A DNA stretch of 64,000 nucleotides from a virus (taxonomy: Duplodnaviria > Heunggongvirae > Uroviricota > Caudoviricetes): the IMG/VR virus record IMGVR_UViG_3300012346_000380, positions 1-64,000 of that record; one strand, given 5' to 3'. A program made the translations under genes and the position numbers. Positions 2,536-51,406 of this stretch are shown one piece after another; the stretch's first letter is position 1; every line of letters starts with the position of its first letter. The notes below the pieces were generated by a model. It was not told the origin of the DNA and did no database searches. It was given only the letters and a program-made list of their open reading frames with translations.

Positions 2536-3948
2536 TTACATTGCATTTACAGCTGCAATAATCTGATCTATTTTGGTTAATAAAGATGCTTTAGAACTTC
2601 CAGCTTTTTCATTGATAAATCCTCTAGCTGTGTTAAGATCTTCTAAAGAAAATGTTTTATCACTACCATAAACTCTGGCTGCTAATGGATTTGTATTAAT
2701 CTTATTATTAACAAAAGTTAACATAAAATCTAAACATTTATCATAATTACCAGTGTTTGGATCAACTAATCTTGCGGCTGTACGAATATCATCATATAAA
2801 GCTTGTACATTGTTTGGTCTGTTAACTAAAGACTTCATAATCACAGCTTGTGTTAAGTATTGAAATCTTTTGCTTAAAAGAGCTTCAGCAATATATTTGG
2901 TTTCAAAGTTAGCAGTTCGGCCATAATTACCAATCCAACCTAAATACAACCACGTTGAGCGTACTTCATCTCTTTCTTCTAATTGTTGACTTACGCTACC
3001 GTTATCTAAACTTCTACGAGCAATATCACCCGCAAACCAAATTGGATCTAAAACCGACTCATAAGTATCGTCTGATAATTTACCATCTACATAGATATTA
3101 AATGGACCAAATTTACCACCTTTATATCTTATAACATGTTGAATATAAGCGCTTGACATCCATTTCATTGTGTTATAAGACTCTTTAAAGTCTGAGTAAC
3201 CATGCTCACCTGGGTGCTTTTGGCCTTCTGTCAAACTATTAAAGACTACTCTTTTAAATCTAACGTAATTTTCATCAGTTGGACTGTCAAGATAATTCAT
3301 ATATGCAGACTTGACTTGTAAATTACCATTTCTCAAAAGTTCCATTGGTTTATCTGGCATAATATCATTAATAGAAGCGGTATCAATCCAAGATGGCAAA
3401 GTAATTGGCACCTTAATTTGTGTAAAGTCCCAGTTATTAACTTGACTTACGCTATATGAAGCATTACTTAAGCCAACTGAGTTTGCAAATTGACCTTCAC
3501 TTACTATTTCACCTCCAGGTTGATACACGTTCTTGATTGAATTTCTAGGTGTAACTTTTCCTTTTGTTAAACTCTTAATGTAATTCATCACATTAATTGC
3601 ATCTTGTGTAGAAACGTGCTTTATTGCTCTGTGAAACGTACGATTCATAAAAGGAATTGAATCTATGTTGTTAAACAATGCAATGTCATAACCATCTTTA
3701 GAAACGTGACAGCTCATGCAAGAATGGCCGTCTTTGTCTAAAGTTGAAGTGTAGACTGTCTGTCCTTTAAGGATCGATTCGCTCATAGAACCAGAATTTA
3801 CAATTCTAGAATCCAACTGTGTTTCTGTGTTTAATTCTCCTGGGGCAACAGCAGTCACTGTAGTTTTTGGTGTAATTTCTTCAAGTTCATCTTTTGTACA
3901 AGATTGAAATAAAACTACAGCGACTAATAATAATGATAACTTTTTCAT
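2536..3948 (-). CDS. exported lipoprotein with a single CxxCH heme-c binding motif (putative c-type cytochrome domain protein)
   Basis: The start is taken at the internal ATG (MKKLSLLLVAVVLFQSC). The track ORF begins at a TTG and reads through the upstream promoter element. Signal peptide with a lipobox (FQSC). GHSCMSCHV supplies the only other cysteines in the protein. Confidence 0.6.
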   Translation of the reverse strand: MKKLSLLLVAVVLFQSCTKDELEEITPKTTVTAVAPGELNTETQLDSRIVNSGSMSESILKGQTVYTSTLDKDGHSCMSCHVSKDGYDIALFNNIDSIPFMNRTFHRAIKHVSTQDAINVMNYIKSLTKGKVTPRNSIKNVYQPGGEIVSEGQFANSVGLSNASYSVSQVNNWDFTQIKVPITLPSWIDTASINDIMPDKPMELLRNGNLQVKSAYMNYLDSPTDENYVRFKRVVFNSLTEGQKHPGEHGYSDFKESYNTMKWMSSAYIQHVIRYKGGKFGPFNIYVDGKLSDDTYESVLDPIWFAGDIARRSLDNGSVSQQLEERDEVRSTWLYLGWIGNYGRTANFETKYIAEALLSKRFQYLTQAVIMKSLVNRPNNVQALYDDIRTAARLVDPNTGNYDKCLDFMLTFVNNKINTNPLAARVYGSDKTFSLEDLNTARGFINEKAGSSKASLLTKIDQIIAAVNAM

Positions 3949-4014: not shown

Positions 4015-5091
4015 TTATTTTTCGTTTAAAAGAAATTTATTTGAAATAGCTTTAAAACTAATCTGTCTGTCCATGGTTCTAAACACTACACCTTCTCTAT
4101 CGAAGTTTGGGTTAAGCACTGACTTTGCTTCTGCAAAGGCTAAACAATCATCGATGGTTTCTGGCAATTTCATCGTTAGATTAGTTAAAATTGGCACAGT
4201 CTCTAACTTAAATTGATGTTTAAATAAAGCCAAGAACATAGGTAAACCATAATAATATTGATTGTCAATATCAAATGCGTTAAAGAATTTAACTGTATGT
4301 CCTTTGATTCCATAAGGATTGCCTTGAATTCCTTCACCGATCAATTCACCTTGTAAAGCCATGTTGTGATTATCATTCTCTCTCAATTTCTCTTCAATCT
4401 TCAATTCACGAGCTACTTTCCAAAATGTATTTTCTTCAGTTTCAAGTAAATCTAAATTTCTAGAGCAAACTCCAAATACGCCGTCATTTAAATAAAAAGT
4501 AGCTGAACTACCATCTAATTTCTCAGTCACGTAAAAGTCTAAATCTTCTTCAAACCATTTTTTATAAAAGCCTGTTAAATTTTGAACTCTCTCTTCATCA
4601 GTTTTTCTTAAGAATGATGGAAAGCTACCTTTAACTTTACCAGCTAATTCGGCTGGAATTGGTGGTTCATATTTAACTACGTTTAAATATTCTGTCACAT
4701 CTGCACCTTCTTCAATTACTAAAGCATTATCATAAGGTCCAACTTGTAATCTGTCTTCGCTCATTCCTATCTTATACTCATCGGGCCCTTCTAAAATACT
4801 CAAAGGCACTACAAGTCCTTGAGAAACTTGGCCTCTAAGTCTAATCGTTTTTAAACGAAAACCTTCTTGATCTGCCATTTTCTTAAAAGAGCTCTTGCGT
4901 AAAAACTCAAACTCTTCTCTAATCGGTAGAAATGAGTCAATTTCAAAATAAACGCAAAGATCTCCTGGCTTATATTCTCCTTTTTTAGAAACTACATCCC
5001 AGTTATTAATTCTTACAACTTCAATTGCATCAGCGCCTTCAATTGGTCTAATGCTTGCTACTCTTTGAATTGAGGCTAATTTTCTTTCCAT
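4015..5091 (-). CDS. ATP-dependent RNA ligase, Rnl5/DraRnl-like (N-terminal extra domain, nucleotidyltransferase KxDG motif at about residue 190)
   Basis: VTEKLDGSS is the lysine-adenylyltransferase motif I. It is preceded by an approximately 180-aa N-terminal domain (IEGADAIEVVRINNWD..GDLCVYFEIDSFLP), as in Rnl5/NgrRnl-type ligases. A DNA-ligase assignment is possible but less likely. Confidence 0.55.
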   Translation of the reverse strand: MERKLASIQRVASIRPIEGADAIEVVRINNWDVVSKKGEYKPGDLCVYFEIDSFLPIREEFEFLRKSSFKKMADQEGFRLKTIRLRGQVSQGLVVPLSILEGPDEYKIGMSEDRLQVGPYDNALVIEEGADVTEYLNVVKYEPPIPAELAGKVKGSFPSFLRKTDEERVQNLTGFYKKWFEEDLDFYVTEKLDGSSATFYLNDGVFGVCSRNLDLLETEENTFWKVARELKIEEKLRENDNHNMALQGELIGEGIQGNPYGIKGHTVKFFNAFDIDNQYYYGLPMFLALFKHQFKLETVPILTNLTMKLPETIDDCLAFAEAKSVLNPNFDREGVVFRTMDRQISFKAISNKFLLNEK

Positions 5092-5378
5092 GGTTTTTTA
5101 TATTTAAGTTCCCAAAATTTTCTATACTCTCGTACGTTAATCATTTTAATAGTGTAGTTCCAATAATCTGTTTCGTTTCTTATTGTTAAATGCAAAACTA
5201 ACATCGAAGGTGGAACATGGTTTGTTGTAGCCCATTTAAAAAGAGCTTTGGTATTTCCTTTTTGTCTAATTTTTTTAGCAAATGTTTTAAAATCACAATC
5301 CCATACTTCAGGATAATAATGTAAAACTCCAGAACTACCGTGTCCAATATAACCAATATTATATGCTACTTGATCCAT
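5076..5378 (-). CDS. hypothetical protein
   Basis: ORF track. It overlaps the downstream ligase gene by 16 nt. Confidence 0.4.
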   Translation of the reverse strand: MDQVAYNIGYIGHGSSGVLHYYPEVWDCDFKTFAKKIRQKGNTKALFKWATTNHVPPSMLVLHLTIRNETDYWNYTIKMINVREYRKFWELKYKKPWKEN

Positions 5379-5389
5379 TTTTTATAGTA

Positions 5390-6499
5390 TTATGAGTTTG
5401 AAAATGGTTTTTCAAACTCTGGTTTAATCATTTTCCAAATTGCATCTCTAATACTTTTATTGTTCTTAATAGAAAATAAAAGACCTGAATTTTTATAAAA
5501 TTTAGCTTCATTGGCAAACATTTTATCAAATTCAGTTTGATAAATTGCAACTCTATCAAAAATCTCATTGAATTTTCGATATGCATCTGCTTCTATTTTC
5601 GAGTAAGCCTCTCTCAAGGTTGTCTCTTGTGCTCTGACCCAATCATAGAACTCATCTGGCACGTCCTTTAGCAATTCTTCTGGTATCTTATTGAATTTCA
5701 TTAAGTTCTCCCAGATGTCATAAGAAGAGCATTGAGTTAGTATTCTGTGTAAAGCACAATAGTCTTCAAACTTAATTTTGACTCTCTTATTAGAAGGAAA
5801 GAATCTTAAAACGAAACCTTCTTTGTTTTGCTCATTCTTTTTCTTTAACGTCTTATATAGATCTTCATTTAAATTAAAGACTTGATTAGTTTCTACAATG
5901 TCATATTTTTCAATACCTGCACATTTAAAGAAAACACACGCCGTAGTCCAATTTAATTCATCAGTGTTTTCACCATCCCAATTCCATGAAGTATTGTAAG
6001 CTGCTCCTAAAAAGACTACCTTTTCAAAATCATACTTAACAACAATTCTATTTTCATTGTAAATGATCTCACACAAATAAGCAATAGCTGGTTCAAATGA
6101 TCTTAAATCATTATATCTAGCTTTGACCATTTCAAGACCTTTGATAGCTTGTACAGATGTAAAAGAGCCTCTAGTGGCCATGATCCATTCACCTTTATAA
6201 TTAAATAAGATACCTAATGAACCATCCATTTTCTCTTGCACATAGACATAATCAGAAGAAGTCCAAGGAATATCCTCAGCTACTTCTTCATAATTAAAAA
6301 ATTTAGGAAATGATTTAATAATAACCTCGCCAGTTGAATCATCGACGATTAAACCTCTACAAGCCAAAGTAATTTCATCCCATTTCTTTTCATATTGGGT
6401 AGCTTGTGAGTAATTGTATATGCTTAATGGTAAAGTTGGGTGACTTTGTTTAATCACCCAACCTTCTTCTACGTACTTGTCTAATATTTTCTTATTCAT
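5390..6499 (-). CDS. RNA ligase 1 family (T4 RnlA-like)
   Basis: At 369 aa with motif I VQEKMDGSLGILF near residue 100, it matches the T4 Rnl1 architecture (K99 in a KEDG-type motif). NYSQ..ITLACRGLIV lies upstream of that motif. Confidence 0.55.
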   Translation of the reverse strand: MNKKILDKYVEEGWVIKQSHPTLPLSIYNYSQATQYEKKWDEITLACRGLIVDDSTGEVIIKSFPKFFNYEEVAEDIPWTSSDYVYVQEKMDGSLGILFNYKGEWIMATRGSFTSVQAIKGLEMVKARYNDLRSFEPAIAYLCEIIYNENRIVVKYDFEKVVFLGAAYNTSWNWDGENTDELNWTTACVFFKCAGIEKYDIVETNQVFNLNEDLYKTLKKKNEQNKEGFVLRFFPSNKRVKIKFEDYCALHRILTQCSSYDIWENLMKFNKIPEELLKDVPDEFYDWVRAQETTLREAYSKIEADAYRKFNEIFDRVAIYQTEFDKMFANEAKFYKNSGLLFSIKNNKSIRDAIWKMIKPEFEKPFSNS

Positions 6500-6569
6500 C
6501 TTCTTTAATTATATGTAAATATACCAAAAATAAATGAGATAAAAAAATATCTAAGCACTTATTTTTAAA
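6500..6569 (-). promoter_or_regulatory. conserved promoter/leader element copy P3
   Basis: The sequence TTAATTATATGTAAATATACC..ATGAGATAAAAAAATATCTAAGCACTTATTTTTAAAT is a repeat-family member upstream of the Rnl1-like gene. Confidence 0.45.
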
Positions 6570-6956
6570 TTATAATTGTATTTCAAATCTGTCTTCCATT
6601 TGTTTTAGCTTTTCAGCTGGAACACCATGTTGATTAACTCCGTTATGTCTGTTTTCAACTATCAAAGAGTACACGATATAACCATATTTTTTAGCTAATG
6701 TGTAATATGTTTCCATTTCCCACTCTTGTGTAAATGTATTTGATATAACAATACGAGCTTCTCCGTTTTCCATATCTTCTTTACAAGATGATTGGCAATA
6801 TTTGTGTGCTTGTAAAAGTTTTACAGCTTCAAACTTATATTCACCTTTTCTATTTGTAAAGAAATGATCTGCTTCGTGATGTGTTCCACCTAAAGATTTA
6901 GCGACGGTTGATTTGCCAGAACCTGGTAAACCTCTTAATAAAAATAATTCTTTCAT
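6570..6956 (-). CDS. polynucleotide 5'-kinase-like P-loop kinase (T4 Pnk kinase-domain-like)
   Basis: Walker A RGLPGSGKSTVAK near the N-terminus. Small size (128 aa). It sits between an RNA ligase and a phosphoesterase. Confidence 0.55.
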   Translation of the reverse strand: MKELFLLRGLPGSGKSTVAKSLGGTHHEADHFFTNRKGEYKFEAVKLLQAHKYCQSSCKEDMENGEARIVISNTFTQEWEMETYYTLAKKYGYIVYSLIVENRHNGVNQHGVPAEKLKQMEDRFEIQL

Positions 6957-6966
6957 ATTTGATTGA

Positions 6967-7632
6967 TTAACAAGTCATTGCATCATTGTGATGATCATGC
7001 TCGTGTTTTAATAAAGATTGTATTGGTCTATCTACAATTAGTTTCAAAACTTGATCAATAGTGTAAGGTTGAAAATCAGGGCTTCCATCAATTCCAACAT
7101 CCATCATTCTACCAGGCCCAACTTTAAATTGATGTGGTGTGTGAATATGACCATGGACGTGCATTACGCCTTGACCCATATCTTGCCAAGAAGCCAAAGG
7201 ATAATGACTCATGACGAATCTGTATTTTTTGGCTGCTTCACCTTTGGTAGTTGGTTGTATTACAATTGTCACCATTCTTTGCTCATTTACTGAGGCAAAA
7301 AGATCTTGAACATTATCTTTATTGTTAAGAATATGATGATCATGGTTTCCTAAGAATAAATGAATGTTCTTACAGTTTAATTTATTTCTGAATTCTACAA
7401 TAGAATCAAAGCCTCCAAAAGACCAGTCACCTAAGTGAATTAAAATATCGTCTTTCATAACTAACATGTTAATGTTGTCTTGTAAGTCAATATTCATTTG
7501 ATTTAATGATTCATAATCTCTAGTGCCTCGGGCTCCATCCCATTTAGAAACTCCTCTACAAATATTTGTATGGTTGTAATGCGTATCTGAAGTAAAAAAG
7601 ACTCTTTGTCCTGGGTTAACTACTATCTTCAT
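6967..7632 (-). CDS. calcineurin-like metallophosphoesterase (candidate 2',3'-cyclic/3'-phosphoesterase of the RNA-repair cassette)
   Basis: All MPP motifs are present: SDTHYNH (DxH), HLGDWSFGG (GD), FLGNHDHH (GNHD/E), and a GHxH region (HVHGHIH). Confidence 0.75.
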   Translation of the reverse strand: MKIVVNPGQRVFFTSDTHYNHTNICRGVSKWDGARGTRDYESLNQMNIDLQDNINMLVMKDDILIHLGDWSFGGFDSIVEFRNKLNCKNIHLFLGNHDHHILNNKDNVQDLFASVNEQRMVTIVIQPTTKGEAAKKYRFVMSHYPLASWQDMGQGVMHVHGHIHTPHQFKVGPGRMMDVGIDGSPDFQPYTIDQVLKLIVDRPIQSLLKHEHDHHNDAMTC

Positions 7633-7720
7633 AGTTTATTTGTTTTTAATTATAAGGCTAATATACAACAAATAATTGACATAAAAAAATATTTAAGTCT
7701 TTATTTTTAAAATATTTTAG
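7633..7720 (-). promoter_or_regulatory. conserved promoter/leader element copy P4
   Basis: The sequence TTTTAATTATAAGGCTAATATACAAC..ATTGACATAAAAAAATATTTAAGTCTTTATTTTTAAAATATT lies directly upstream of the phosphoesterase gene. Confidence 0.5.
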
Positions 7721-7801
7721 CAGTCAAGGCAGGATTCGAACCTGCAACGATACAACCATTAAGGATGACATAACCATTTTGCCATTACGTATTACTTGAC
7801 T
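7721..7801 (-). ncRNA. tRNA-like RNA module 1: perfect T-arm and a 7-bp acceptor-like stem, but no convincing anticodon arm
   Basis: Minus-sense sequence AGTCAAGTAATACGTAATGGCAAAATGGTTATGTCATCCTTAATGGTTGTATCGTTGCAGGTTCGAATCCTGCCTTGACTG. Acceptor AGTCAAG/CTTGACT and T-arm GCAGG-TTCGAAT-CCTGC are clear. The best anticodon candidate (loop GTCATCC, anticodon CAT) has only a 4-bp stem. This may be an odd tRNA, a pseudo-tRNA, or a Y-RNA-type tRNA mimic. Confidence 0.35.
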
Positions 7802-7860
7802 TCCTTTCTAATGAGAGCATCACACACTCAAGACTGTTCATAAACTAGTTTAAGTAGAGT

Positions 7861-8015
7861 AGTCAGGACAGGATTCGAACCTGTATTGTAATTATACTCC
7901 TCTTTGTGTTAGCAGTCAGAGTTTCGCCTACAGTCATTGGGTGCTAACCTTTCGGACCCAACCGCGTCTACCATGAAAGGACCTTTAATATTCCTAACTA
8001 TTCCGCCACCTGACT
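7861..8015 (-). ncRNA. tRNA-like RNA module 2: the T-arm plus acceptor 3' strand are at 7861-7884, and the matching AGTCAGG 5' strand is about 150 nt upstream at 8009-8015
   Basis: The minus-sense 3' end is ACAGGTTCGAATCCTGTCCTGACT-ACTCTAC. The complementary AGTCAGG lies at 8009-8015. The intervening RNA contains GCGGTTGGGTCCGAAAGGTTAGCA, which resembles the Y-RNA 5' GGUCCGA motif. The fold is unresolved by eye. Confidence 0.3.
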
Positions 8016-8672
8016 TCAATTTACTAATCTGGGTCTTTCATGTAGCTTACCGAGTTATCAGTTACGGAGCTTGTACATGAGCAGGGTTTCTGATTGAGTG
8101 CAATAAGTGACGCCTTCCTACTGTAAACCCTTTTTCGGAAATTAATACACTCTACCTCTCAATTAACAGCAAGCATTAGTAAATTGTTTAGCACCCTCTT
8201 TCTTATATGACTATTTCTTACAGTTTACGCCCATATAAGAGTAGGGTCACGTAGTTTTCAATTTGGCAGTTCCTCTCTGCACCCATTTGTTAAGTTTAAT
8301 TATTGCTACTTGCTGAGAACTCATTTGTGTTGATAAGAACGTTGTCTTACTCTTTTATAGCATCACTTTCTCAAGGTGACAACACATCTACCATTACTGA
8401 TAGTATCTTTATGTAAATTATACTTAATATTTATAGACGATAAGTTAAACGTCGGCAATAATTTACAAAGGTATTCAATGTTTAACCTATTAACAATTAT
8501 CGACTACAAGGTTAATTGTTTTGTGTGAGCTTTTAGCACACTACCTGCCAGTTTATACATAGGAACCGAAACCTTAAACCTAGTCTGACCTGCCAGACAG
8601 TACAAGTCGATATTAATTTCACGTGTCGTTTTGTAGTAGGTTCTTTTGTTATATCTTAAACCTTTAAAAAGT

Positions 8673-9254
8673 TTAAAGTATTGTGTCTTTATATCCTTGT
8701 TTCCAATCTAACCACGGTTCATCGATTGCTTTTAATAATGACAGATATTTCCAATGCATAAACAATTTACGCTCGTTCCAATCTTCATATTTTTTAATTA
8801 AAAGATCTTGCTTATCCATTTCAGTTTTATAGAAATCTGCTCTTTTTGAAAGTTTAGTAAAGCGATCATCTAATTTTGCAAGTCTTTTTACAGCATTTTC
8901 AGTTGAGAGTCCTTGCATTGATAATGAAACTATCAATTCTTTTAGATTAACAATCATGTCAATCATAGAATTCAATTTCGGTACTAATGAATTGTAAGAA
9001 GTTTTTGCAGATTCCTTTGATCTTTTAAAACTATTATAATTCTCTTGCAATTCTTTGTCAGCTAGATCTTCATGAATTAATGTAGTAACATCAATGCCAT
9101 ACATTTGATCGAACTGTTCTCCGGCTGGAATCGGTGCTAACATAGCCATTCCTGCAATTTCTTCGTTTTTAGTTTCATTTAAAACTGCAACGTAACAATT
9201 ACCTTTTTGAGTTTCTAAAAGCTCTTTAACTTGTTTTTGTGTGTATAATTTCAT
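8673..9254 (-). CDS. hypothetical protein
   Basis: ORF track. No motif recognised. Confidence 0.5.
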   Translation of the reverse strand: MKLYTQKQVKELLETQKGNCYVAVLNETKNEEIAGMAMLAPIPAGEQFDQMYGIDVTTLIHEDLADKELQENYNSFKRSKESAKTSYNSLVPKLNSMIDMIVNLKELIVSLSMQGLSTENAVKRLAKLDDRFTKLSKRADFYKTEMDKQDLLIKKYEDWNERKLFMHWKYLSLLKAIDEPWLDWKQGYKDTIL

Positions 9255-12379: not shown

Positions 12380-12393
12380 GAATTATATATTAA

Positions 12394-12422
12394 TAAAAAA
12401 ATCCAGGCTTACGGGCCTGGAT
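12394..12422 (-). terminator. intrinsic terminator hairpin (ATCCAGGC-ttacgg-GCCTGGAT) followed by T7 in minus sense
   Basis: A perfect 8-bp GC-rich stem at about 12401-12422 with AAAAAAA at 12394-12400 on the plus strand. It closes the ORF-free segment downstream of the Ro60-like gene. Confidence 0.55.
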
Positions 12423-12429
12423 TAAATTA

Positions 12430-12757
12430 TAGCGGGATCGTTGTTCGTGATTTTCTTCTCGGCAGAATAACCCTCTTTTACGTCTTCGGCAATTGCTTTC
12501 GCGAGCGTCTACTTTACTTCGACCCATCCTACTTACTTCCTAATGGGGTGGTTTGACGTGTAGCTTATTTTTAGTGTTAGCCTTCACTTTGACCGGAAGC
12601 TTCATTTCGTCCATAAGACAATCCACCTTTTACCCAGTCCTCTGTCATAGTTGTTTGTGTACTTTTTGCTGTACCGATCCACCTGGTTCCAATCGTTTGC
12701 TAGTTAAGTGATTGCTTTTTATAGTTTGCTGTAAGGAACCAATTTTCTTTATATATC
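12430..12757 (-). ncRNA. candidate structured ncRNA (possible Y-RNA-like partner of the adjacent Ro60/TROVE protein)
   Basis: About 330 nt with no ORF in any frame. GC is visibly elevated relative to the flanks. It is transcribed co-directionally immediately 3' of the Ro60-like gene and ends at a strong terminator. It contains internal complementary segments (e.g. TGGTTCC ... GGAACCA). Confidence 0.35.
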
Positions 12758-14185
12758 TTAAACAATTGGAGCGTATCTCTCGCTCAAGATTGTTTTGTCC
12801 ATGATTTGCTGTGGAGATTCAATATCTCCTCCAAGTAAACTTGTCATAATTGCTGGTGAGAAACCTGAAACTAATGCAGTTCCTGCTTTGTCAAAAGCAA
12901 CTGGCACTCCACCGTTTCTAGATTGAATATTCCAGTAAACAATTTGAGGCATTTTGTAACCTGAAGACTCATACATGTCGTTAATTACTTGTTGAGCTGT
13001 TGGATTCCATGATGCTTCATTTCTCCATGAGCTAGATCTAACAGCCTGATTAAATTCCATATCTGACAAGATTAGAATTTTGTTTGGCATCTCATCTTGA
13101 GACAATTTATGTTTAGTGGCCTGATCTAAGATCAGCTTGAAGGTCGCCTCGAGATTTGTTGACATTCCCCAATCGGAACATGACATCTGTGCGTAGCGAT
13201 CTTGCAATGAACCACTTAGTACTTGTAACTGTGGAGAGTTTGAAAATGTTATAAATGCATCTTTGAAAGGACCTTCATTTCTTTCAGAAATATAAAGACC
13301 TAAAGAGATTGCAACATCCATACATGTTACAGTTTTACTACCACCTGCTGAGCAAGACATAGAACCTGAAACATCCACCACTGGTAAAATCATATCGTTT
13401 GCTCCTTCTAAATAATTAGGAAGGGCTTTCCATTGTTCGTTTGCTACTTTTGCATTTCCATGAGTTAATGACTTAGTCACGTCATAAGGATAAACTGCAC
13501 CTGCATTAATTTTAGCTTCACCTTTCACTAAAGATTGGATATATGCTGAATAACTTTCGTATGCATTTTTACCGAAAGCTTTTTGGTAACGTGCTGATGC
13601 TACTGATGGTAATTTACCGAATTCGATAGAATCCCATTCTTTAGCACACATTTTAGTTTCAACTACATTAGTCAAATTAACTAAAGTTTTACGGTATTGT
13701 TTTGGAGATAAATCCATGAATTTACGTAACTTTTCAGCATTTTGACCTTTACGTGGCATCCATTTAGCGCATAAACCATTTTCTGCTTTAATAGCATTTT
13801 CGATTATAATCAACGCATCGTTTTCTAAATAAGTTCCAAAAAGAGATAATAAGTCATCGAAACGACCATACTCTGCAATCAAACCTAAATTTGGTTTTAA
13901 GGCTAAATCATGATTTTCAGCTAAGTAAACTAAAATGTCTTTAAAGACTTGACGTTCACCTGCACCACCTCTAACATCTCTTGCCCAAAACAAAAGTTTC
14001 ATAGCACGCTTAGGATCTTCATTGAAAGCTTTTGAAAAAGTTGCGATCAAACGTTGTTTGTCTTGGCCTCTCATTGCTCCAATATTAAAGAATAAGTCAA
14101 CACATGCATTCAATGAAGTTGAATTTGTTGCCATTCCATTTTCTGTTACGATGTCTTCTTGTCTTAAAGCGTCTACTAAGTTCAT
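12758..14185 (-). CDS. Ro60/TROVE-like protein with C-terminal vWA domain (Rsr ortholog candidate)
   Basis: 475 aa. The N-terminal helical region is followed by a vWA MIDAS motif VVDVSGSMS and downstream LILSDMEFN. This is the architecture of the Ro60 (TROVE + vWA) family, whose bacterial and phage members partner with Y RNAs. Confidence 0.5.
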   Translation of the reverse strand: MNLVDALRQEDIVTENGMATNSTSLNACVDLFFNIGAMRGQDKQRLIATFSKAFNEDPKRAMKLLFWARDVRGGAGERQVFKDILVYLAENHDLALKPNLGLIAEYGRFDDLLSLFGTYLENDALIIIENAIKAENGLCAKWMPRKGQNAEKLRKFMDLSPKQYRKTLVNLTNVVETKMCAKEWDSIEFGKLPSVASARYQKAFGKNAYESYSAYIQSLVKGEAKINAGAVYPYDVTKSLTHGNAKVANEQWKALPNYLEGANDMILPVVDVSGSMSCSAGGSKTVTCMDVAISLGLYISERNEGPFKDAFITFSNSPQLQVLSGSLQDRYAQMSCSDWGMSTNLEATFKLILDQATKHKLSQDEMPNKILILSDMEFNQAVRSSSWRNEASWNPTAQQVINDMYESSGYKMPQIVYWNIQSRNGGVPVAFDKAGTALVSGFSPAIMTSLLGGDIESPQQIMDKTILSERYAPIV

Positions 14186-25817: not shown

Positions 25818-25899
25818 CGGAGAGGACAGGATTCGAACCTGCAACCCGTTTCCGAGCGACGGTTTTCAAGACCGCTCGACAACCATTGTCCACCTCTCC
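25818..25899 (-). tRNA. tRNA-Ser (anticodon TGA), type II
   Basis: Minus-strand sequence GGAGAGGTGGACAATGGTTGTCGAGCGGTCTTGAAAACCGTCGCTCGGAAACGGGTTGCAGGTTCGAATCCTGTCCTCTCCG. Acceptor GGAGAGG/CCTCTCC. Anticodon stem GCGGT/ACCGT with loop CTTGAAA. Long variable arm and T-arm GCAGG/TTCGAAT/CCTGT. Confidence 0.75.
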
Positions 25900-49933: not shown

Positions 49934-51406
49934 TTATGCTAAAGAGATTAAGTTAGACCAAGTGTGAGCAGCGCCAGCAACTTGACCGATTGTGAATTTC
50001 ACGTATTGTGTTTCTGGGTGGAAACCTGCTTCAACTAATGCGAATCTAGATTTAACAGCAATTTTTGGTGCCATTGTAGCTTCTGCGATAGTTTGAACTG
50101 ATTCAGCCATTAAGTAAGGCATGAATACTAAACCAGGACCGTTACCGTCACCTTTTCTACCAACTAATACGTCAAAGTTATTCCACTTCCATTTAGGGTT
50201 AGTGTAAACTTGAACACCTGCTACAGAACCTACTGGGTAGATTGCACCTGCAGCTTGAGATACTGTATTAGCGAATGGGTTTGGAACGTAACCAGCAACT
50301 GATTGTAATGCTGTAGCAACTTGTGGTCCTACAACCGCGAAGTTACCTGCACCTCTTCTACCTCTGTTAGCGATTAAGTTAGCAGCAGCTAAGATACCTG
50401 TTAAGATTTTTCTGTGCTCAGAACCTTCAGTTTTACCACCTTGGAAATCAGAAGCAGCATATAAGTTTACGTTCAATGAAGTTGCAGAAATTTCACCAGC
50501 AGCAGTAGCTTTAGAGATGTTAGACACACCTAAAGTAGCGATGTTATTGATGATTAAATCATTAATAGTTTGAGTTAATTCATTAACTAAAACAGCTTCA
50601 ACTTGAGCAACAGCATCAACACCGAATTGTTTTAAATCTTGAACTTGCTCTCTAGTTACAGCAGCAGCTACTTGAATAGTTTTAGCTTCAACAGCTTTAC
50701 TGAATAAAGAAAGACCCATTAATTTCTCATTAGTTCTTTCACCTTCTTCTCTTGTGTAAGCGTTTTCAGAATCTTTAGCAGTGAAACCTGGTAAGTGATC
50801 TTCTAATGCTTTAACTAATTCTACTGAACCAACAGTTGCACCAGCAGCTTCTAAATCTTCAGCTACAGTATCGTTAGCAGCATCAATAGTACCTACTTTA
50901 TAGATAGATTTACCATCAATTCTTGATTTACCAGCATACTCGTATGCACCGTTATCACCTGCAGATGCAGCGATATCACCAGTAACACCAGCAGCTTTAA
51001 CGTAAGTTGGAGCTACACCGTTGTCTAATCTACCACCTTCGTAAACGAAGTCTAAGTAAGATAATAATCCCATTGGACCTGCCATTGGAATAACTGGTAC
51101 TAAATCTAAAGCGATTGTTTGTGCAGCAACTTGCATTGCTAAAGGTAATAAAGTTGGAGCTTTGTCACCTGATCCTAATGATGTAGGGTTTGAACCAAAT
51201 CCTGAAGGAAATGATACTACGCCCATACCTCTTAAGTTCATAGTTGGGTCTAAGCTCATGTGAGCAGTTGCATCTTCATACAACTTGTGGTTGTGGCAGT
51301 ACTCTGACATCCACGCTAATTTGCTAGCGTCATTGATACCTGTAGCAGCCTCGATAATTGGAGACCATGTTTCTCTGATCTCTGCTTCGTTAATTAATTG
51401 TGCCAT
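49934..51406 (-). CDS. major capsid protein (T4 gp23-like fold family)
   Basis: 490 aa. It sits downstream of the portal and prohead protease genes and is followed by a strong terminator. It is rich in Ala/Gly and has HK97/gp23-like length and composition. Confidence 0.6.
   Translation of the reverse strand: MAQLINEAEIRETWSPIIEAATGINDASKLAWMSEYCHNHKLYEDATAHMSLDPTMNLRGMGVVSFPSGFGSNPTSLGSGDKAPTLLPLAMQVAAQTIALDLVPVIPMAGPMGLLSYLDFVYEGGRLDNGVAPTYVKAAGVTGDIAASAGDNGAYEYAGKSRIDGKSIYKVGTIDAANDTVAEDLEAAGATVGSVELVKALEDHLPGFTAKDSENAYTREEGERTNEKLMGLSLFSKAVEAKTIQVAAAVTREQVQDLKQFGVDAVAQVEAVLVNELTQTINDLIINNIATLGVSNISKATAAGEISATSLNVNLYAASDFQGGKTEGSEHRKILTGILAAANLIANRGRRGAGNFAVVGPQVATALQSVAGYVPNPFANTVSQAAGAIYPVGSVAGVQVYTNPKWKWNNFDVLVGRKGDGNGPGLVFMPYLMAESVQTIAEATMAPKIAVKSRFALVEAGFHPETQYVKFTIGQVAGAAHTWSNLISLA

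What the first reader, a model, noticed from the sequence alone, without database searches (positions are those of the whole stretch)
7633..8672. 1-kb ORF-free, GC-elevated region with two tRNA-like modules that lack a canonical anticodon arm (Y-RNA-like tRNA mimics, or an interrupted tRNA)
In a genome where genes are packed end to end, 7633-8672 has no ORF of 60 codons or more in any frame, and its GC content is visibly higher than the flanks. Two minus-strand elements carry perfect tRNA T-arms. One is GCAGG-TTCGAAT-CCTGC at 7729-7745. The other is ACAGG-TTCGAAT-CCTGT at 7868-7884. Both have related 7-bp acceptor-like stems (AGTCAAG/CTTGACT for the first, AGTCAGG/CCTGACT for the second). For the second element the complementary 5' strand lies about 150 nt away, at 8009-8015. 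Neither element folds into a standard cloverleaf by eye: the best anticodon stem is only 4 bp, with a CAT loop. The intervening RNA contains GCGGUUGGGUCCGAAAGGUUAGCA, and the 3' end reads CCUGACUACUC. These resemble the conserved 5' GGUCCGA and 3' UUGACUAGUC strands of the Ro60-binding stem of Y RNAs. Bacterial Y RNAs (YrlA) are known to contain tRNA-like T-arm and acceptor modules. Alternatives are tRNA pseudogenes, or a tRNA split by a large group I intron that runs to about 8650.
Basis: partly seen in the sequence, partly recalled or inferred. Interest (0 to 1): 0.8.

Follow-up and report, generated by a model that had tools for sequence, protein, structure and literature searches.

The report
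Phage non-coding RNA operon, tRNA-like tail
The gene-free kilobase is a phage non-coding RNA operon: a previously undescribed, widely conserved 300-nt structured RNA followed by two leucine-tRNA-derived look-alikes that have lost the anticodon, next to a set of RNA-repair genes.

Summary
7633-8672 has no ORF, even with one stop codon recoded, and it carries two minus-strand tRNA-like modules that ARAGORN and Rfam do not call as tRNAs.

Positions 8490-8186 (-) encode a ~305-nt structured RNA. It belongs to a phage-specific family found in more than 150 IMG/VR contigs. 43 of 44 modelled base pairs show compensatory changes. It has no Rfam 15 match and no literature match. A 170-nt 3' domain (8185-8016) abuts module 2.

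Module 2 (8015-7860) and module 1 (7801-7721) belong to a large family of tRNA-Leu-derived scaffolds. These keep the acceptor stem, the Leu-type D-arm and the T-arm, and usually A73. The anticodon and variable region is replaced by hypervariable inserts.

In other phages the family lies on the same strand as tRNAs and tmRNAs, and sometimes directly abuts them. I infer one precursor cut by tRNA-processing enzymes.

The Y-RNA reading is not supported by sequence or topology. However, a Ro60/TROVE-like gene with its own adjacent conserved RNA lies 4 kb upstream. The group I intron and split-tRNA reading is rejected. Function is unknown. The closest analogues are ROOL/GOLLD and T4 species 1 RNA.

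The parts
8491..8672 (-). 5' leader between the upstream ORF (stop at 8673) and the structured RNA. No promoter was identified.
   Evidence: It has no ORF. It is conserved with the close relatives L130 and L091, and in halves with L114/L120 and L039/L043. The sigma-70 scan is uninformative for a Bacteroidota-type phage.
8186..8490 (-). Core of a new phage-specific structured RNA family (model R1). It comprises hairpin H1 (8488-8469) with the invariant loop UAAACAUUGAA; a long stem H2 with a variable tip; hairpin H3 (8403-8388); a three-way junction closed by H4 (GUGUUG/CAACAC) that contains H5 (8379-8363, loop CUUGAGAAA); a candidate pseudoknot UGAGAA x UUCUCA (8319-8314); H7 (GUAG/CUAC); H8 (8246-8231 with 8209-8190); and the invariant 3' tail GGGUGCUAAA.
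   Evidence: cmsearch gives 124.2 bits, E=2e-23, as the single hit in the window. On 100 distinct sequences, 43 of 44 pairs show compensatory changes. 88.9% of cells are paired against 38-52% when partners are slid, and 0 of 500 shuffles reach the observed value (hand alignment). Exact conserved blocks occur in 69 and in at least 120 IMG/VR contigs.
8016..8185 (-). Optional 3' extension domain of the large RNA. It contains a hairpin (8079-8039) built like H8 and ends exactly at the 5' end of module 2.
   Evidence: It is about 92% identical to L114/L120, with a compensatory U-A to C-G change in the hairpin. nhmmer finds all or part of it in about 17 other loci. The hairpin tip CCGUAACUGAUAACUCGG recurs as the H8 tip of other family members.
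7860..8015 (-). Module 2, a 156-nt tRNA-Leu-derived tRNA-like RNA. Its parts are: 7-bp acceptor (8015-8009 / 7867-7861); D-arm GCG...CGC with a 27-nt hairpin inserted in the D-loop (7999-7973); a 7-bp stem with a 13-nt loop in place of the anticodon arm (7962-7936); a long variable-arm analogue (7932-7887); T-arm (7884-7868); and discriminator A (7860).
   Evidence: The unconstrained MFE fold of the exact element is this five-armed cloverleaf. The D-arm string AGGTGGCGGAATTGGTAGACGC of the family is 100% identical to annotated tRNA-Leu in 5426 of 5426 E. coli genomes. Family membership is shown. Comparison with L130 shows it is a fusion of two neighbouring family members, made by a deletion between their T-arms.
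7802..7859 (-). Conserved 3' trailer and spacer between the two modules.
   Evidence: It is conserved with L130, L039/L043 and L091. In L039 it follows the homologous module but lies upstream of the core.
7721..7801 (-). Module 1, an 81-nt degenerate member of the same family. It has a 7-bp acceptor AGUCAAG/CUUGACU, T-arm 7745-7729, a weak stem with a CUUAAUG loop (UAA, Leu-like), a degenerate D-arm and discriminator G (7721).
   Evidence: The Rfam tRNA score is 19.2 bits against a cut-off of 29. ARAGORN makes no call. It is identical in L130.
7683..7718 (-). AU-rich hairpin followed by a U7 run; the probable intrinsic terminator of the RNA operon.
   Evidence: This is read from the sequence. 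The consensus scan missed it because that scan requires at least 3 G-C pairs.

Best explanation
**What it is.** 7683-8490 (-) is a polycistronic non-coding RNA operon inside a phage tRNA and RNA-repair island. It has three parts:
1. a ~305-nt, intricately folded RNA of a new phage-specific family, here extended by a 170-nt 3' domain;
2. a 156-nt tRNA-Leu-derived tRNA-like RNA;
3. an 81-nt degenerate copy, followed by a terminator.

**What is shown.**
- The family exists and its fold is supported by covariation.
- The tRNA-like modules belong to a large family. Members keep the acceptor stem, the Leu-type D-arm, the T-arm and A73, and replace the anticodon and variable region with hypervariable inserts.
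- In other phages the core lies on the same strand as tRNAs and tmRNAs, and sometimes directly abuts them.

**What is inferred.**
- The operon is transcribed as one precursor.
- Host RNase P cuts at the 5' end of each tRNA-like module. This releases the large RNA with a defined 3' end.
- tRNA 3'-end enzymes and the CCA-adding enzyme then mature the modules.
- Module 2 keeps the elements E. coli LeuRS needs (A73 and the D/T-loop elbow), so it could be leucylated. It cannot decode.

**Most likely roles.**
- The modules are stable, tRNA-shaped carriers or decoys in the phage-host conflict over tRNAs.
- The large RNA is an abundant structural or catalytic RNA of the ROOL/GOLLD kind that acts on the translation or tRNA machinery.

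**How sure.** The stated confidence applies to the anatomy (non-coding operon, new structured RNA family, tRNA-Leu-derived modules). I put the processing scheme at about 0.6 and the proposed roles at about 0.3.
For: **Non-coding.**

**Core family and fold.**

**Not a known family.**
- No Rfam match in the window or in 15 homologous loci.
- No paper in the library contains the conserved blocks.
- The core is essentially absent from 185,579 species genomes. There are 2 hits, both on MAG contigs.

**Context.**
- All 96 ARAGORN tRNA/tmRNA genes within about 2.2 kb of 124 distinct cores are on the core's strand.
- 20 of 124 cores have a phage tmRNA nearby, and in 16-17 of these it starts right after the core.
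- In L049 the tmRNA starts 2 nt after the core.
- In L034 a tRNA-Met ends where the core begins.

**tRNA-like family.**
- 218 unique elements were found.
- 171 have a 7/7-paired acceptor, against 0 when the 3' strand is shifted.
- There are 27 compensatory acceptor types.
- A73 is present in 84-87%.
- Median length is about 110 nt.
- Only 18% are called as tRNA, and those calls carry 16 different 'anticodons'.
- All 44 copies near cores are on the same strand as the core.

**Leu identity.**
- The D-arm is identical to E. coli tRNA-Leu.
- Among canonical tRNAs in the loci, only tRNA-Leu shares this D-arm.
- For E. coli LeuRS, A73 and the D/T-loop pairs are needed, while the anticodon and variable arms are dispensable (PMC9976931).

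**Cloverleaf fold of module 2.**

**Adjacent RNA repair genes.**
Against: - There is no expression or end-mapping data, and no promoter was identified.
- The function of both RNA families is unknown. ROOL and GOLLD, the analogues, are themselves of unknown function.
- The link between the core and the tRNA-like family is loose. Only 28 of 149 core loci have an AGUCAGG-type module, and only 1 of 100 loci chosen by the module motif has a core. They may be independent residents of the same RNA island.
- The proposed pseudoknot shows only wobble-compatible one-sided changes.
- The repair-gene adjacency is limited to close relatives.
- Leucylation is inferred from E. coli rules, not from the Flavobacteriia host.
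- Module 1 has G73, an antideterminant for LeuRS.
- Folded with its flanks, module 2 is no more stable than shuffled sequence.
Confidence: 0.75

Rival explanations
1. The tRNA-like modules are Y-RNA analogues (YrlA-like tRNA mimics). They would bind the phage's Ro60/TROVE-like protein and work with the neighbouring RNA ligases in RNA quality control or repair.
For: - The 475-aa protein at 12758-14185 matches phrog_850 'RNA-binding protein' at 7e-158.
- Its only two Foldseek PDB hits with E<=0.001 are a TROVE domain (9kop, 4.7e-7) and Ro60 (9nep_A, 1.5e-4).
- Two RNA ligases, a P-loop kinase and a phosphoesterase lie at 4015-7632.
- Phage TROVE proteins are said to act with a tRNA-like partner (PMC7824862).
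- Module 2 contains UGGGUCCGAAAGG, which resembles the 5' strand of the Ro-binding helix of metazoan Y RNAs (my recollection of the hY1 sequence).
Against: - There is no Rfam Y_RNA or other match.
- The termini form an acceptor stem, so the topology is that of a tRNA, not of YrlA.
- GGUCCGA is absent from 110 of 110 other family members.
- The TROVE-like gene has its own conserved, covarying RNA immediately downstream in 48 of 80 loci.
- Modules occur near only 7 of 80 TROVE loci.
- The protein model is of low confidence (pLDDT 59), and a sequence profile does not reach Ro60.
Confidence: 0.12
2. The modules are decaying tRNA-Leu pseudogenes with no function of their own. They would be carried along in a recombination-prone tRNA island.
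For: - Module 1 has a degenerate D-arm, a weak anticodon-like stem and G73.
- Module 2 is a deletion fusion of two neighbouring elements.
- ARAGORN 'anticodons' across the family are inconsistent.
Against: - The scaffold is under strong purifying selection in more than 200 unique copies: perfect 7-bp acceptors with 27 compensatory types, conserved D- and T-arms, and A73 in about 85%.
- Inserts are structured and conserved within sub-families, with covariation between L041 and L003.
- Tandem arrays of up to 4-5 copies occur.
- The fused module 2 still folds as a complete cloverleaf.
Confidence: 0.1
3. The region is a tRNA gene interrupted by a large self-splicing (group I) intron that runs to about 8650, or tRNAs with small introns.
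For: - The acceptor strands of module 2 are 150 nt apart.
- tRNA-Leu(UAA) is the classical host of bacterial group I introns (general knowledge).
- HNH and GIY-YIG homing-endonuclease ORFs lie near some family members.
Against: - No group I or group II intron family matches at E<=10.
- Inserts range continuously from about 0 to 110 nt, too short for group I introns, and no exon-like anticodon loop is restored.
- The 305-nt core lies outside the modules.
- In more than 100 phages the core is flanked by unrelated sequence, complete tRNAs or tmRNAs.
Confidence: 0.02
4. The region encodes a protein missed because of an unusual start or a recoded stop codon.
For: Some Bacteroidota and crAss-like phages recode stop codons (general knowledge). 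In phi14:2 the homologous region is annotated with three 34-39-aa ORFs.
Against: - The longest frame is 102 codons even with one stop recoded.
- Conservation comes in invariant nucleotide blocks separated by indels of arbitrary length, with compensatory base-pair changes.
- The phi14:2 mini-ORFs are on the opposite strand.
Confidence: 0.01

Closest known systems
ROOL and GOLLD RNAs (large ornate phage/prophage RNAs)
   Same: - Both are encoded by phages, often next to tRNA islands.
- They are several hundred nucleotides long, with many helices, pseudoknots and invariant junctions.
- No partner protein is known and the function is unknown (PMC12286853).
- GOLLD can carry tRNAs in a linker region. 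Here tRNA-like modules and tmRNAs are fused 3' of the core.
   Different: - There is no sequence or structure match to either Rfam model.
- The core is smaller, about 260-500 nt.
- The conserved part is at the 5' end, whereas in GOLLD it is at the 3' end.
- Multimer or cage formation is untested.
- A direct tandem with phage tmRNA (16-17 of 124) was not mentioned for ROOL or GOLLD in the passages I read.
Phage T4 species 1 and 2 stable RNAs (rnaC, rnaD)
   Same: They are stable RNAs of unknown function at the end of the phage tRNA gene cluster. rnaC (139 nt) has a canonical T-arm, CCGGG-UUCGAAU-CCCGG, and a long body in place of the rest of a tRNA. That they are matured by tRNA-processing enzymes is my recollection.
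   Different: - There is no sequence similarity beyond the T-loop.
- The family here keeps a full 7-bp acceptor, a Leu-type D-arm and A73.
- It is hypervariable in the insert and often occurs in tandem arrays.
Bacterial Y RNAs (YrlA) with Ro60/Rsr
   Same: They are tRNA-shaped non-coding RNAs with D- and T-arm mimicry, found in RNA-repair gene neighbourhoods. A TROVE-like gene and RNA ligases are present in this window.
   Different: - The topology is that of a tRNA, with the ends in the acceptor stem.
- There is no conserved Ro-binding helix.
- The modules are not adjacent to the TROVE-like gene, which has another RNA beside it.
Minimalist tRNA-Leu substrates and tmRNA tRNA-like domains
   Same: E. 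coli tRNA-Leu lacking the anticodon and variable arms is still leucylated if A73 and the D/T-loop pairs are kept (PMC9976931). tmRNA, and the CDS-less tmRNA of phage DS6A, show that anticodon-less but chargeable tRNA mimics exist in nature (PMC11915505).
   Different: - Here the scaffold is natural and phage-encoded.
- It carries large variable inserts.
- It lacks the G3:U70 alanine determinant, the tag ORF and the pseudoknots of tmRNA.

Membership tests
Canonical tRNA (Rfam RF00005 / ARAGORN) | A score above the curated threshold; a cloverleaf with a 5-bp anticodon stem and a 7-nt loop | tested here: not met
   Module 1 scores 19.2 bits against a cut-off of 29. Module 2 has no match. ARAGORN is silent on both. 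Module 2 has a 7-bp stem with a 13-nt loop at that position.
Canonical tRNA (Rfam RF00005 / ARAGORN) | A 7-bp acceptor stem, a T-arm with a UUCRANY loop, and a D-loop GG for the elbow | tested here: met
   The motif occurs 6 times against 0.11 expected by chance.
tRNA-Leu-derived anticodon-less scaffold family (defined here) | Acceptor stem (usually AGUCAGG/CCUGACU), D-arm UGGCGGAAUUGGUAGACGC, T-arm ACAGG-UUCGAAU-CCUGU, A73, and a variable insert in between | tested here: met
   Module 2 has all of these features, plus a D-loop insert. Module 1 meets the acceptor and T-arm criteria only; its D-arm is degenerate and it has G73.
New phage structured RNA family (model R1, defined here) | A match to the covariance model built from 41 members, with helices H1-H8 and the invariant blocks | tested here: met
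   8186-8490(-) scores 124.2 bits, E=2e-23. The window sequence was itself in the seed alignment. The independent support is the exact conserved blocks and the covariation across 100 sequences.
Y RNA / YrlA | A match to the Rfam Y RNA models | tested here: not met
   No such match at E<=10 in 7500-8800.
Y RNA / YrlA | The 5' and 3' ends pair into a conserved Ro-binding helix, with the tRNA-like domain internal | tested here: not met
   The ends form a tRNA acceptor stem. The GGUCCGA string is absent from 110 of 110 other family members.
Y RNA / YrlA | Encoded next to a Ro60/Rsr (TROVE) gene | tested here: inconclusive
   A TROVE-like gene lies 4.3 kb upstream on the same strand. A different conserved RNA is directly adjacent to it. 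Modules lie within 10 kb of only 7 of 80 such genes.
Y RNA / YrlA | Physical binding to Ro60/Rsr | not testable with these tools
   This needs a pull-down or a gel-shift assay.
Group I intron in a tRNA gene | An intron core (P3-P9) match, with flanking exons that restore a tRNA | tested here: not met
   There is no Intron_gpI match. The core occurs without tRNA halves in more than 100 loci.
tmRNA | A tRNA-like domain with G3:U70, a tag reading frame and pseudoknots | tested here: not met
   ARAGORN and Rfam find no tmRNA in the window. The acceptor position-3 pair is U-A. Genuine phage tmRNAs do follow the core in other loci.
GOLLD / ROOL | A match to the Rfam covariance models | tested here: not met
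   No match in the window or in 15 homologous loci at E<=1-10.
GOLLD / ROOL | Phage-encoded, near tRNA islands, with no partner protein | tested here: met
GOLLD / ROOL | Self-assembly into homo-oligomeric cages | not testable with these tools
   This needs cryo-EM or SEC-MALS of the transcript.

The most novel reading that the evidence does not exclude
8490-8016 encodes a previously undescribed class of large, phage-only structured RNA with about 110 near-invariant nucleotides and four hypervariable, recombining hairpin tips. It is made as the 5' part of tRNA-type precursors that end in a phage tmRNA or in tRNA-Leu-shaped, anticodon-less RNAs that may be leucylated. Together these would form an RNA toolkit with which Bacteroidota-type phages manipulate or protect the host translation and tRNA machinery. 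The large RNA could be a new ribozyme or a self-assembling RNA in the manner of ROOL/GOLLD.
Probability: 0.35. Interest if true: 0.9.

Novelty: new variant of a known kind. Interest (0 to 1): 0.78.

Why it matters
**A new large RNA class.** Only a handful of large, ornate bacterial and phage RNA classes are known (GOLLD, ROOL, OLE, raiA, HEARO). Each has opened new biology or new RNA architecture.
- This locus adds a well-supported, widespread and apparently uncatalogued class.
- It has an unusually strict conserved core.
- It is found in at least one cultured phage, Cellulophaga phage phi14:2, so it can be studied at the bench.

**A large family of natural tRNA-Leu scaffolds.**
- They keep everything needed for processing, and probably for charging, but cannot decode.
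- This bears directly on current work on tRNA-targeting phage defence and phage counter-measures.
- It gives a natural counterpart to the engineered 'tRNA scaffold'.

**Annotation.** Both families are currently either unannotated or mis-annotated, as tiny ORFs or as tRNAs with impossible anticodons.

Tried and rejected
- **Rfam scans.** I ran gathering and permissive scans of the window, of phi14:2 and of 15 homologous loci. Only tRNA and tmRNA matches appeared.
- **Group I intron or split tRNA.** Rejected; see the rival explanations.
- **Hidden protein gene.** Rejected.
- **rRNA mimicry.** The core has no blastn match in any E. coli genome.
- **Second core copy in the window.** None found with filters off.
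- **Antisense 'guide' role for the inserts.** Nothing in the 64-kb window is complementary beyond the shared T-arm of tRNA-Ser.
- **Partner protein.** Clustering 1418 neighbouring ORFs gave no family that is consistently adjacent. The best was 31 of 149 at scattered positions.
- **RNA-repair cassette as a general neighbour of the core.** It is found only in close relatives.
- **TROVE-like gene as a general neighbour of the core.** True for only 2 of 80 loci.
- **9-nt complementarity between module 2 (UUAGCACCC, 7947-7939) and the invariant core tail GGGUGCUAA.** It is seen only in this phage and in L130, so it is treated as chance.
- **UGAGAA enrichment in inserts.** Marginal: 4 of 33 near cores and 1 of 110 elsewhere.
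- **Sequence-profile link of the DUF2828 protein to Ro60.** Not found.
- **Literature.** No paper holds the conserved blocks. Supplements of the 10,006-csRNA survey were not available.
- **First MAFFT run.** It timed out.
Full report
**1.

The longest ORF overlapping 7633-8672 is 50 aa. Reading through any one stop codon still leaves at most 102 open codons.

GC is 0.351 in the region against 0.318 for the window. The excess sits in the two tRNA-like modules (0.41-0.45) and in 8016-8185 (0.38).

Both T-arms and both pairs of acceptor strands are at the stated coordinates on the minus strand. The T-arm motif GGTTCRANYCC occurs 6 times in the window against 0.11 expected.

ARAGORN finds four ordinary tRNAs elsewhere in the window and none here. 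Rfam finds nothing at gathering threshold. At E<=10 it finds only a sub-threshold tRNA match, 19.2 bits against 29, for the 3' module.

**2. The larger part of the region is a separate conserved RNA**

A sensitive blastn against GenBank phages hit one stretch (8306-8398) at 79% identity in Cellulophaga phage phi14:2, a crAss-like phage. That region of phi14:2 also has no real gene and is annotated with three 34-39-aa ORFs on the other strand.

Reading both minus strands showed five shared blocks separated by unrelated hairpins.
- One 25-mer block occurs exactly in 69 IMG/VR viral contigs.
- A 21-mer occurs in only 2 of 185,579 species genomes, both on MAG contigs.

The family is therefore essentially phage-only.

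From 41 members with the variable tips excised I derived helices H1-H8. On that alignment:
- 89% of cells pair, against 41-49% when partners are slid;
- 0 of 500 shuffles reach the observed covariation.

I built a covariance model (R1) and searched 100 sources with it, which gave 104 hits. The window has one hit, at 8186-8490(-), with 124.2 bits and E=2e-23. No second copy appears with filters off.

On the 100 distinct real sequences aligned to the model:
- 43 of 44 pairs show compensatory changes;
- 88.9% of cells pair, against 38-52% when slid.

This alignment is fitted to the model, so it leans towards the structure. The hand alignment agrees with it.

G-U pairs and the orientation of all neighbouring RNA genes fix the strand as minus.

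A pseudoknot, UGAGAA (H5 loop) with UUCUCA, is compatible with six wobble-preserving one-sided changes but is not proven.

Nothing in Rfam 15 matches the core, either in the window or in 15 other loci. No paper in the library contains its conserved blocks.

**3. A 3' domain**

8185-8016 is not a spacer.
- It is about 92% identical to the corresponding region of the more distant L114/L120, with a compensatory change in a hairpin built like H8.
- Parts of it recur in about 17 other loci.
- It ends at the first base of module 2.

**4. The tRNA-like modules**

A finder for 'T-arm + 3' acceptor + complementary 5' strand' showed that module 2's ends recur near many cores, with bodies of 65-182 nt. 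The recurring ends are AGUCAGG...ACAGG-UUCGAAU-CCUGU-CCUGACU-A.

The 5' part continues into UGGCGGAAUUGGUAGACGC.
- This is 100% identical to annotated tRNA-Leu in all 5426 E. coli genomes.
- Among canonical tRNAs in the fetched loci, only tRNA-Leu shares it.
- One family member (L003, offset +2223) still has a CUCCA-CUUAAAU-UGGAG anticodon arm, which reads Leu UAA.

It gave 111 unique elements:
- length 70-182 nt, median 107.5;
- only 20 called as tRNA, with 16 different and partly impossible 'anticodons';
- A73 in 87%.

Over all loci there are 218 unique elements:
- 171 have a perfect 7-bp acceptor, against 0 when the 3' strand is shifted;
- there are 27 compensatory acceptor types.

The exact 156-nt module 2 folds without constraints into a five-armed cloverleaf:
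- acceptor stem;
- D-stem with a hairpin inserted in the D-loop;
- a 7-bp stem with a 13-nt loop where the anticodon arm should be;
- a long variable-arm analogue;
- T-arm.

Module 1 is a degenerate member. It has G73, a poor D-arm and a weak stem with a CUUAAUG loop.

Comparison with L130, a near-identical strain, shows two things:
- Module 2 arose by deletion between the T-arms of two adjacent family members.
- Two-thirds of the core has been swapped for another allele in otherwise 99-100% identical DNA.

Both RNA families therefore behave as recombining cassettes.

**5. Context**
- Within about 2.2 kb of 124 distinct cores, all 96 ARAGORN tRNA/tmRNA genes are on the core's strand.
- 20 cores have a genuine phage tmRNA nearby (G3:U70, long tags such as ANAQIEANMNKVFSLLGEEVAVAA). 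In 16-17 of these it starts right after the core.
- In L049 the tmRNA starts 2 nt after the core. In L034 a tRNA-Met ends where the core begins.

From this I infer that the core's ends are made by tRNA-processing enzymes. This step is an inference.

No protein family is consistently adjacent. The two RNA families are only loosely linked: 28 of 149 in one direction and 1 of 100 in the other.

In this window the operon is followed on the same strand by four RNA-repair genes:
- a metallophosphoesterase (6967-7632);
- a P-loop kinase (6570-6956);
- a T4 Rnl1-type RNA ligase (5390-6499);
- a second RNA ligase (4015-5091).

This is a healing-and-sealing set like the T4 set that repairs cleaved tRNA (general knowledge). 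The adjacency is confined to close relatives.

**6. The Y-RNA idea**

The 475-aa protein at 12758-14185 (DUF2828 + DUF7788) matches phrog_850 'RNA-binding protein'. Its AlphaFold model is poor (pLDDT 59). Even so, its only two significant PDB fold matches are a TROVE domain and Ro60. A sequence profile does not reach them.

Phage TROVE proteins are thought to work with a tRNA-like partner and RNA ligases (PMC7824862).

The modules themselves do not fit it:
- there is no Rfam match;
- the topology is that of a tRNA;
- the GGUCCGA string is found in no other family member.

Moreover, the TROVE-like gene is followed directly (12757-12390) by its own ORF-free, terminator-ended RNA.
- This RNA is conserved in 48 of 80 such loci.
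- 11 of its 34 predicted pairs show compensatory changes.

That RNA is the better Y-RNA candidate.

**7. Mechanism and comparison**

E. coli LeuRS needs A73 and the D/T-loop elbow, but not the anticodon or variable arm. Truncated tRNA-Leu lacking those arms is still charged (PMC9976931). Module 2 keeps exactly those elements, so it is plausibly processed, CCA-tailed and perhaps leucylated, but it cannot decode.

The closest known relatives in kind are:
- T4 species 1 RNA (rnaC, 139 nt, with a T-arm and a long body, at the end of the tRNA cluster), for the modules;
- ROOL and GOLLD (PMC12286853), for the core.

Neither is homologous by any test run here. Function remains unknown. I commit to a 'tRNA-operon-embedded structural or catalytic RNA plus tRNA-shaped carriers or decoys' as the most likely reading. 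Confidence is high for the anatomy and low for the roles.

Noticed in passing
window 12758-14185 (-) and 12390-12757 (-): A Ro60/TROVE-like protein (DUF2828+DUF7788, phrog_850) that is 85-95% identical across more than 120 protein clusters. It is followed directly by a ~340-nt ORF-free, GC-richer stretch ending in a strong terminator. That stretch is conserved in 48 of 80 loci encoding the protein, shows compensatory base-pair changes and has no Rfam match. It is a candidate phage Y-RNA analogue.
   Followed up: partly
window 4015-7632 (-): An RNA healing-and-sealing cassette directly downstream of the RNA operon: a metallophosphoesterase, an AAA_33 P-loop (polynucleotide-kinase-like) protein, a T4 Rnl1-type RNA ligase and a second RNA ligase with a PHA02142 OB domain. 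tRNA-Leu, tRNA-Thr and tRNA-Arg follow at 1379-1632.
   Followed up: partly
L130 versus window 7860-8470: A near-identical strain (flanks 99-100% identical) carries a different allele of the core (other H2 tip, H5 and H6, with H7 deleted). It also has about 290 extra bases holding one more tRNA-like module. Both RNA families therefore recombine as cassettes at their invariant blocks.
   Followed up: yes
L002 (Cellulophaga phage phi14:2, KC821624 about 2900-3300, and tmRNA at L002 1712-2181): In the only cultured phage with the core, the RNA is annotated as three tiny hypothetical ORFs (gp007-009) on the wrong strand. An unannotated phage tmRNA lies downstream.
   Followed up: partly
L004, L010, L041, L049, L058, L061 and others: Phage-encoded tmRNAs with unusually long, related tags (for example ANAQIEANMNKVFSLLGEEVAVAA) sit directly 3' of the core.
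   Followed up: partly
L074, L084, L098, L100 (for example L100 3243-3410): A truncated form of the core ends after AAAUGAGCUCA with its own terminator and is followed by an HNH homing-endonuclease ORF. GIY-YIG endonuclease ORFs lie about 1 kb upstream of other copies.
   Followed up: partly
window 51186-51196 (-): A sixth T-arm-like motif (GGTTCAAACCC) lies outside any called tRNA. It was not examined.
   Followed up: no
window 25823-25845 (-): The T-arm of tRNA-Ser(TGA) shares a 19-nt exact match with the T-arms of both tRNA-like modules.
   Followed up: no
L248, L278, L003, L047, L238: Tandem arrays of 3-5 tRNA-Leu-like scaffolds with different inserts occur within 1-3 kb. The layout recalls repeat-spacer arrays. 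No targets for the inserts were found in this window.
   Followed up: partly
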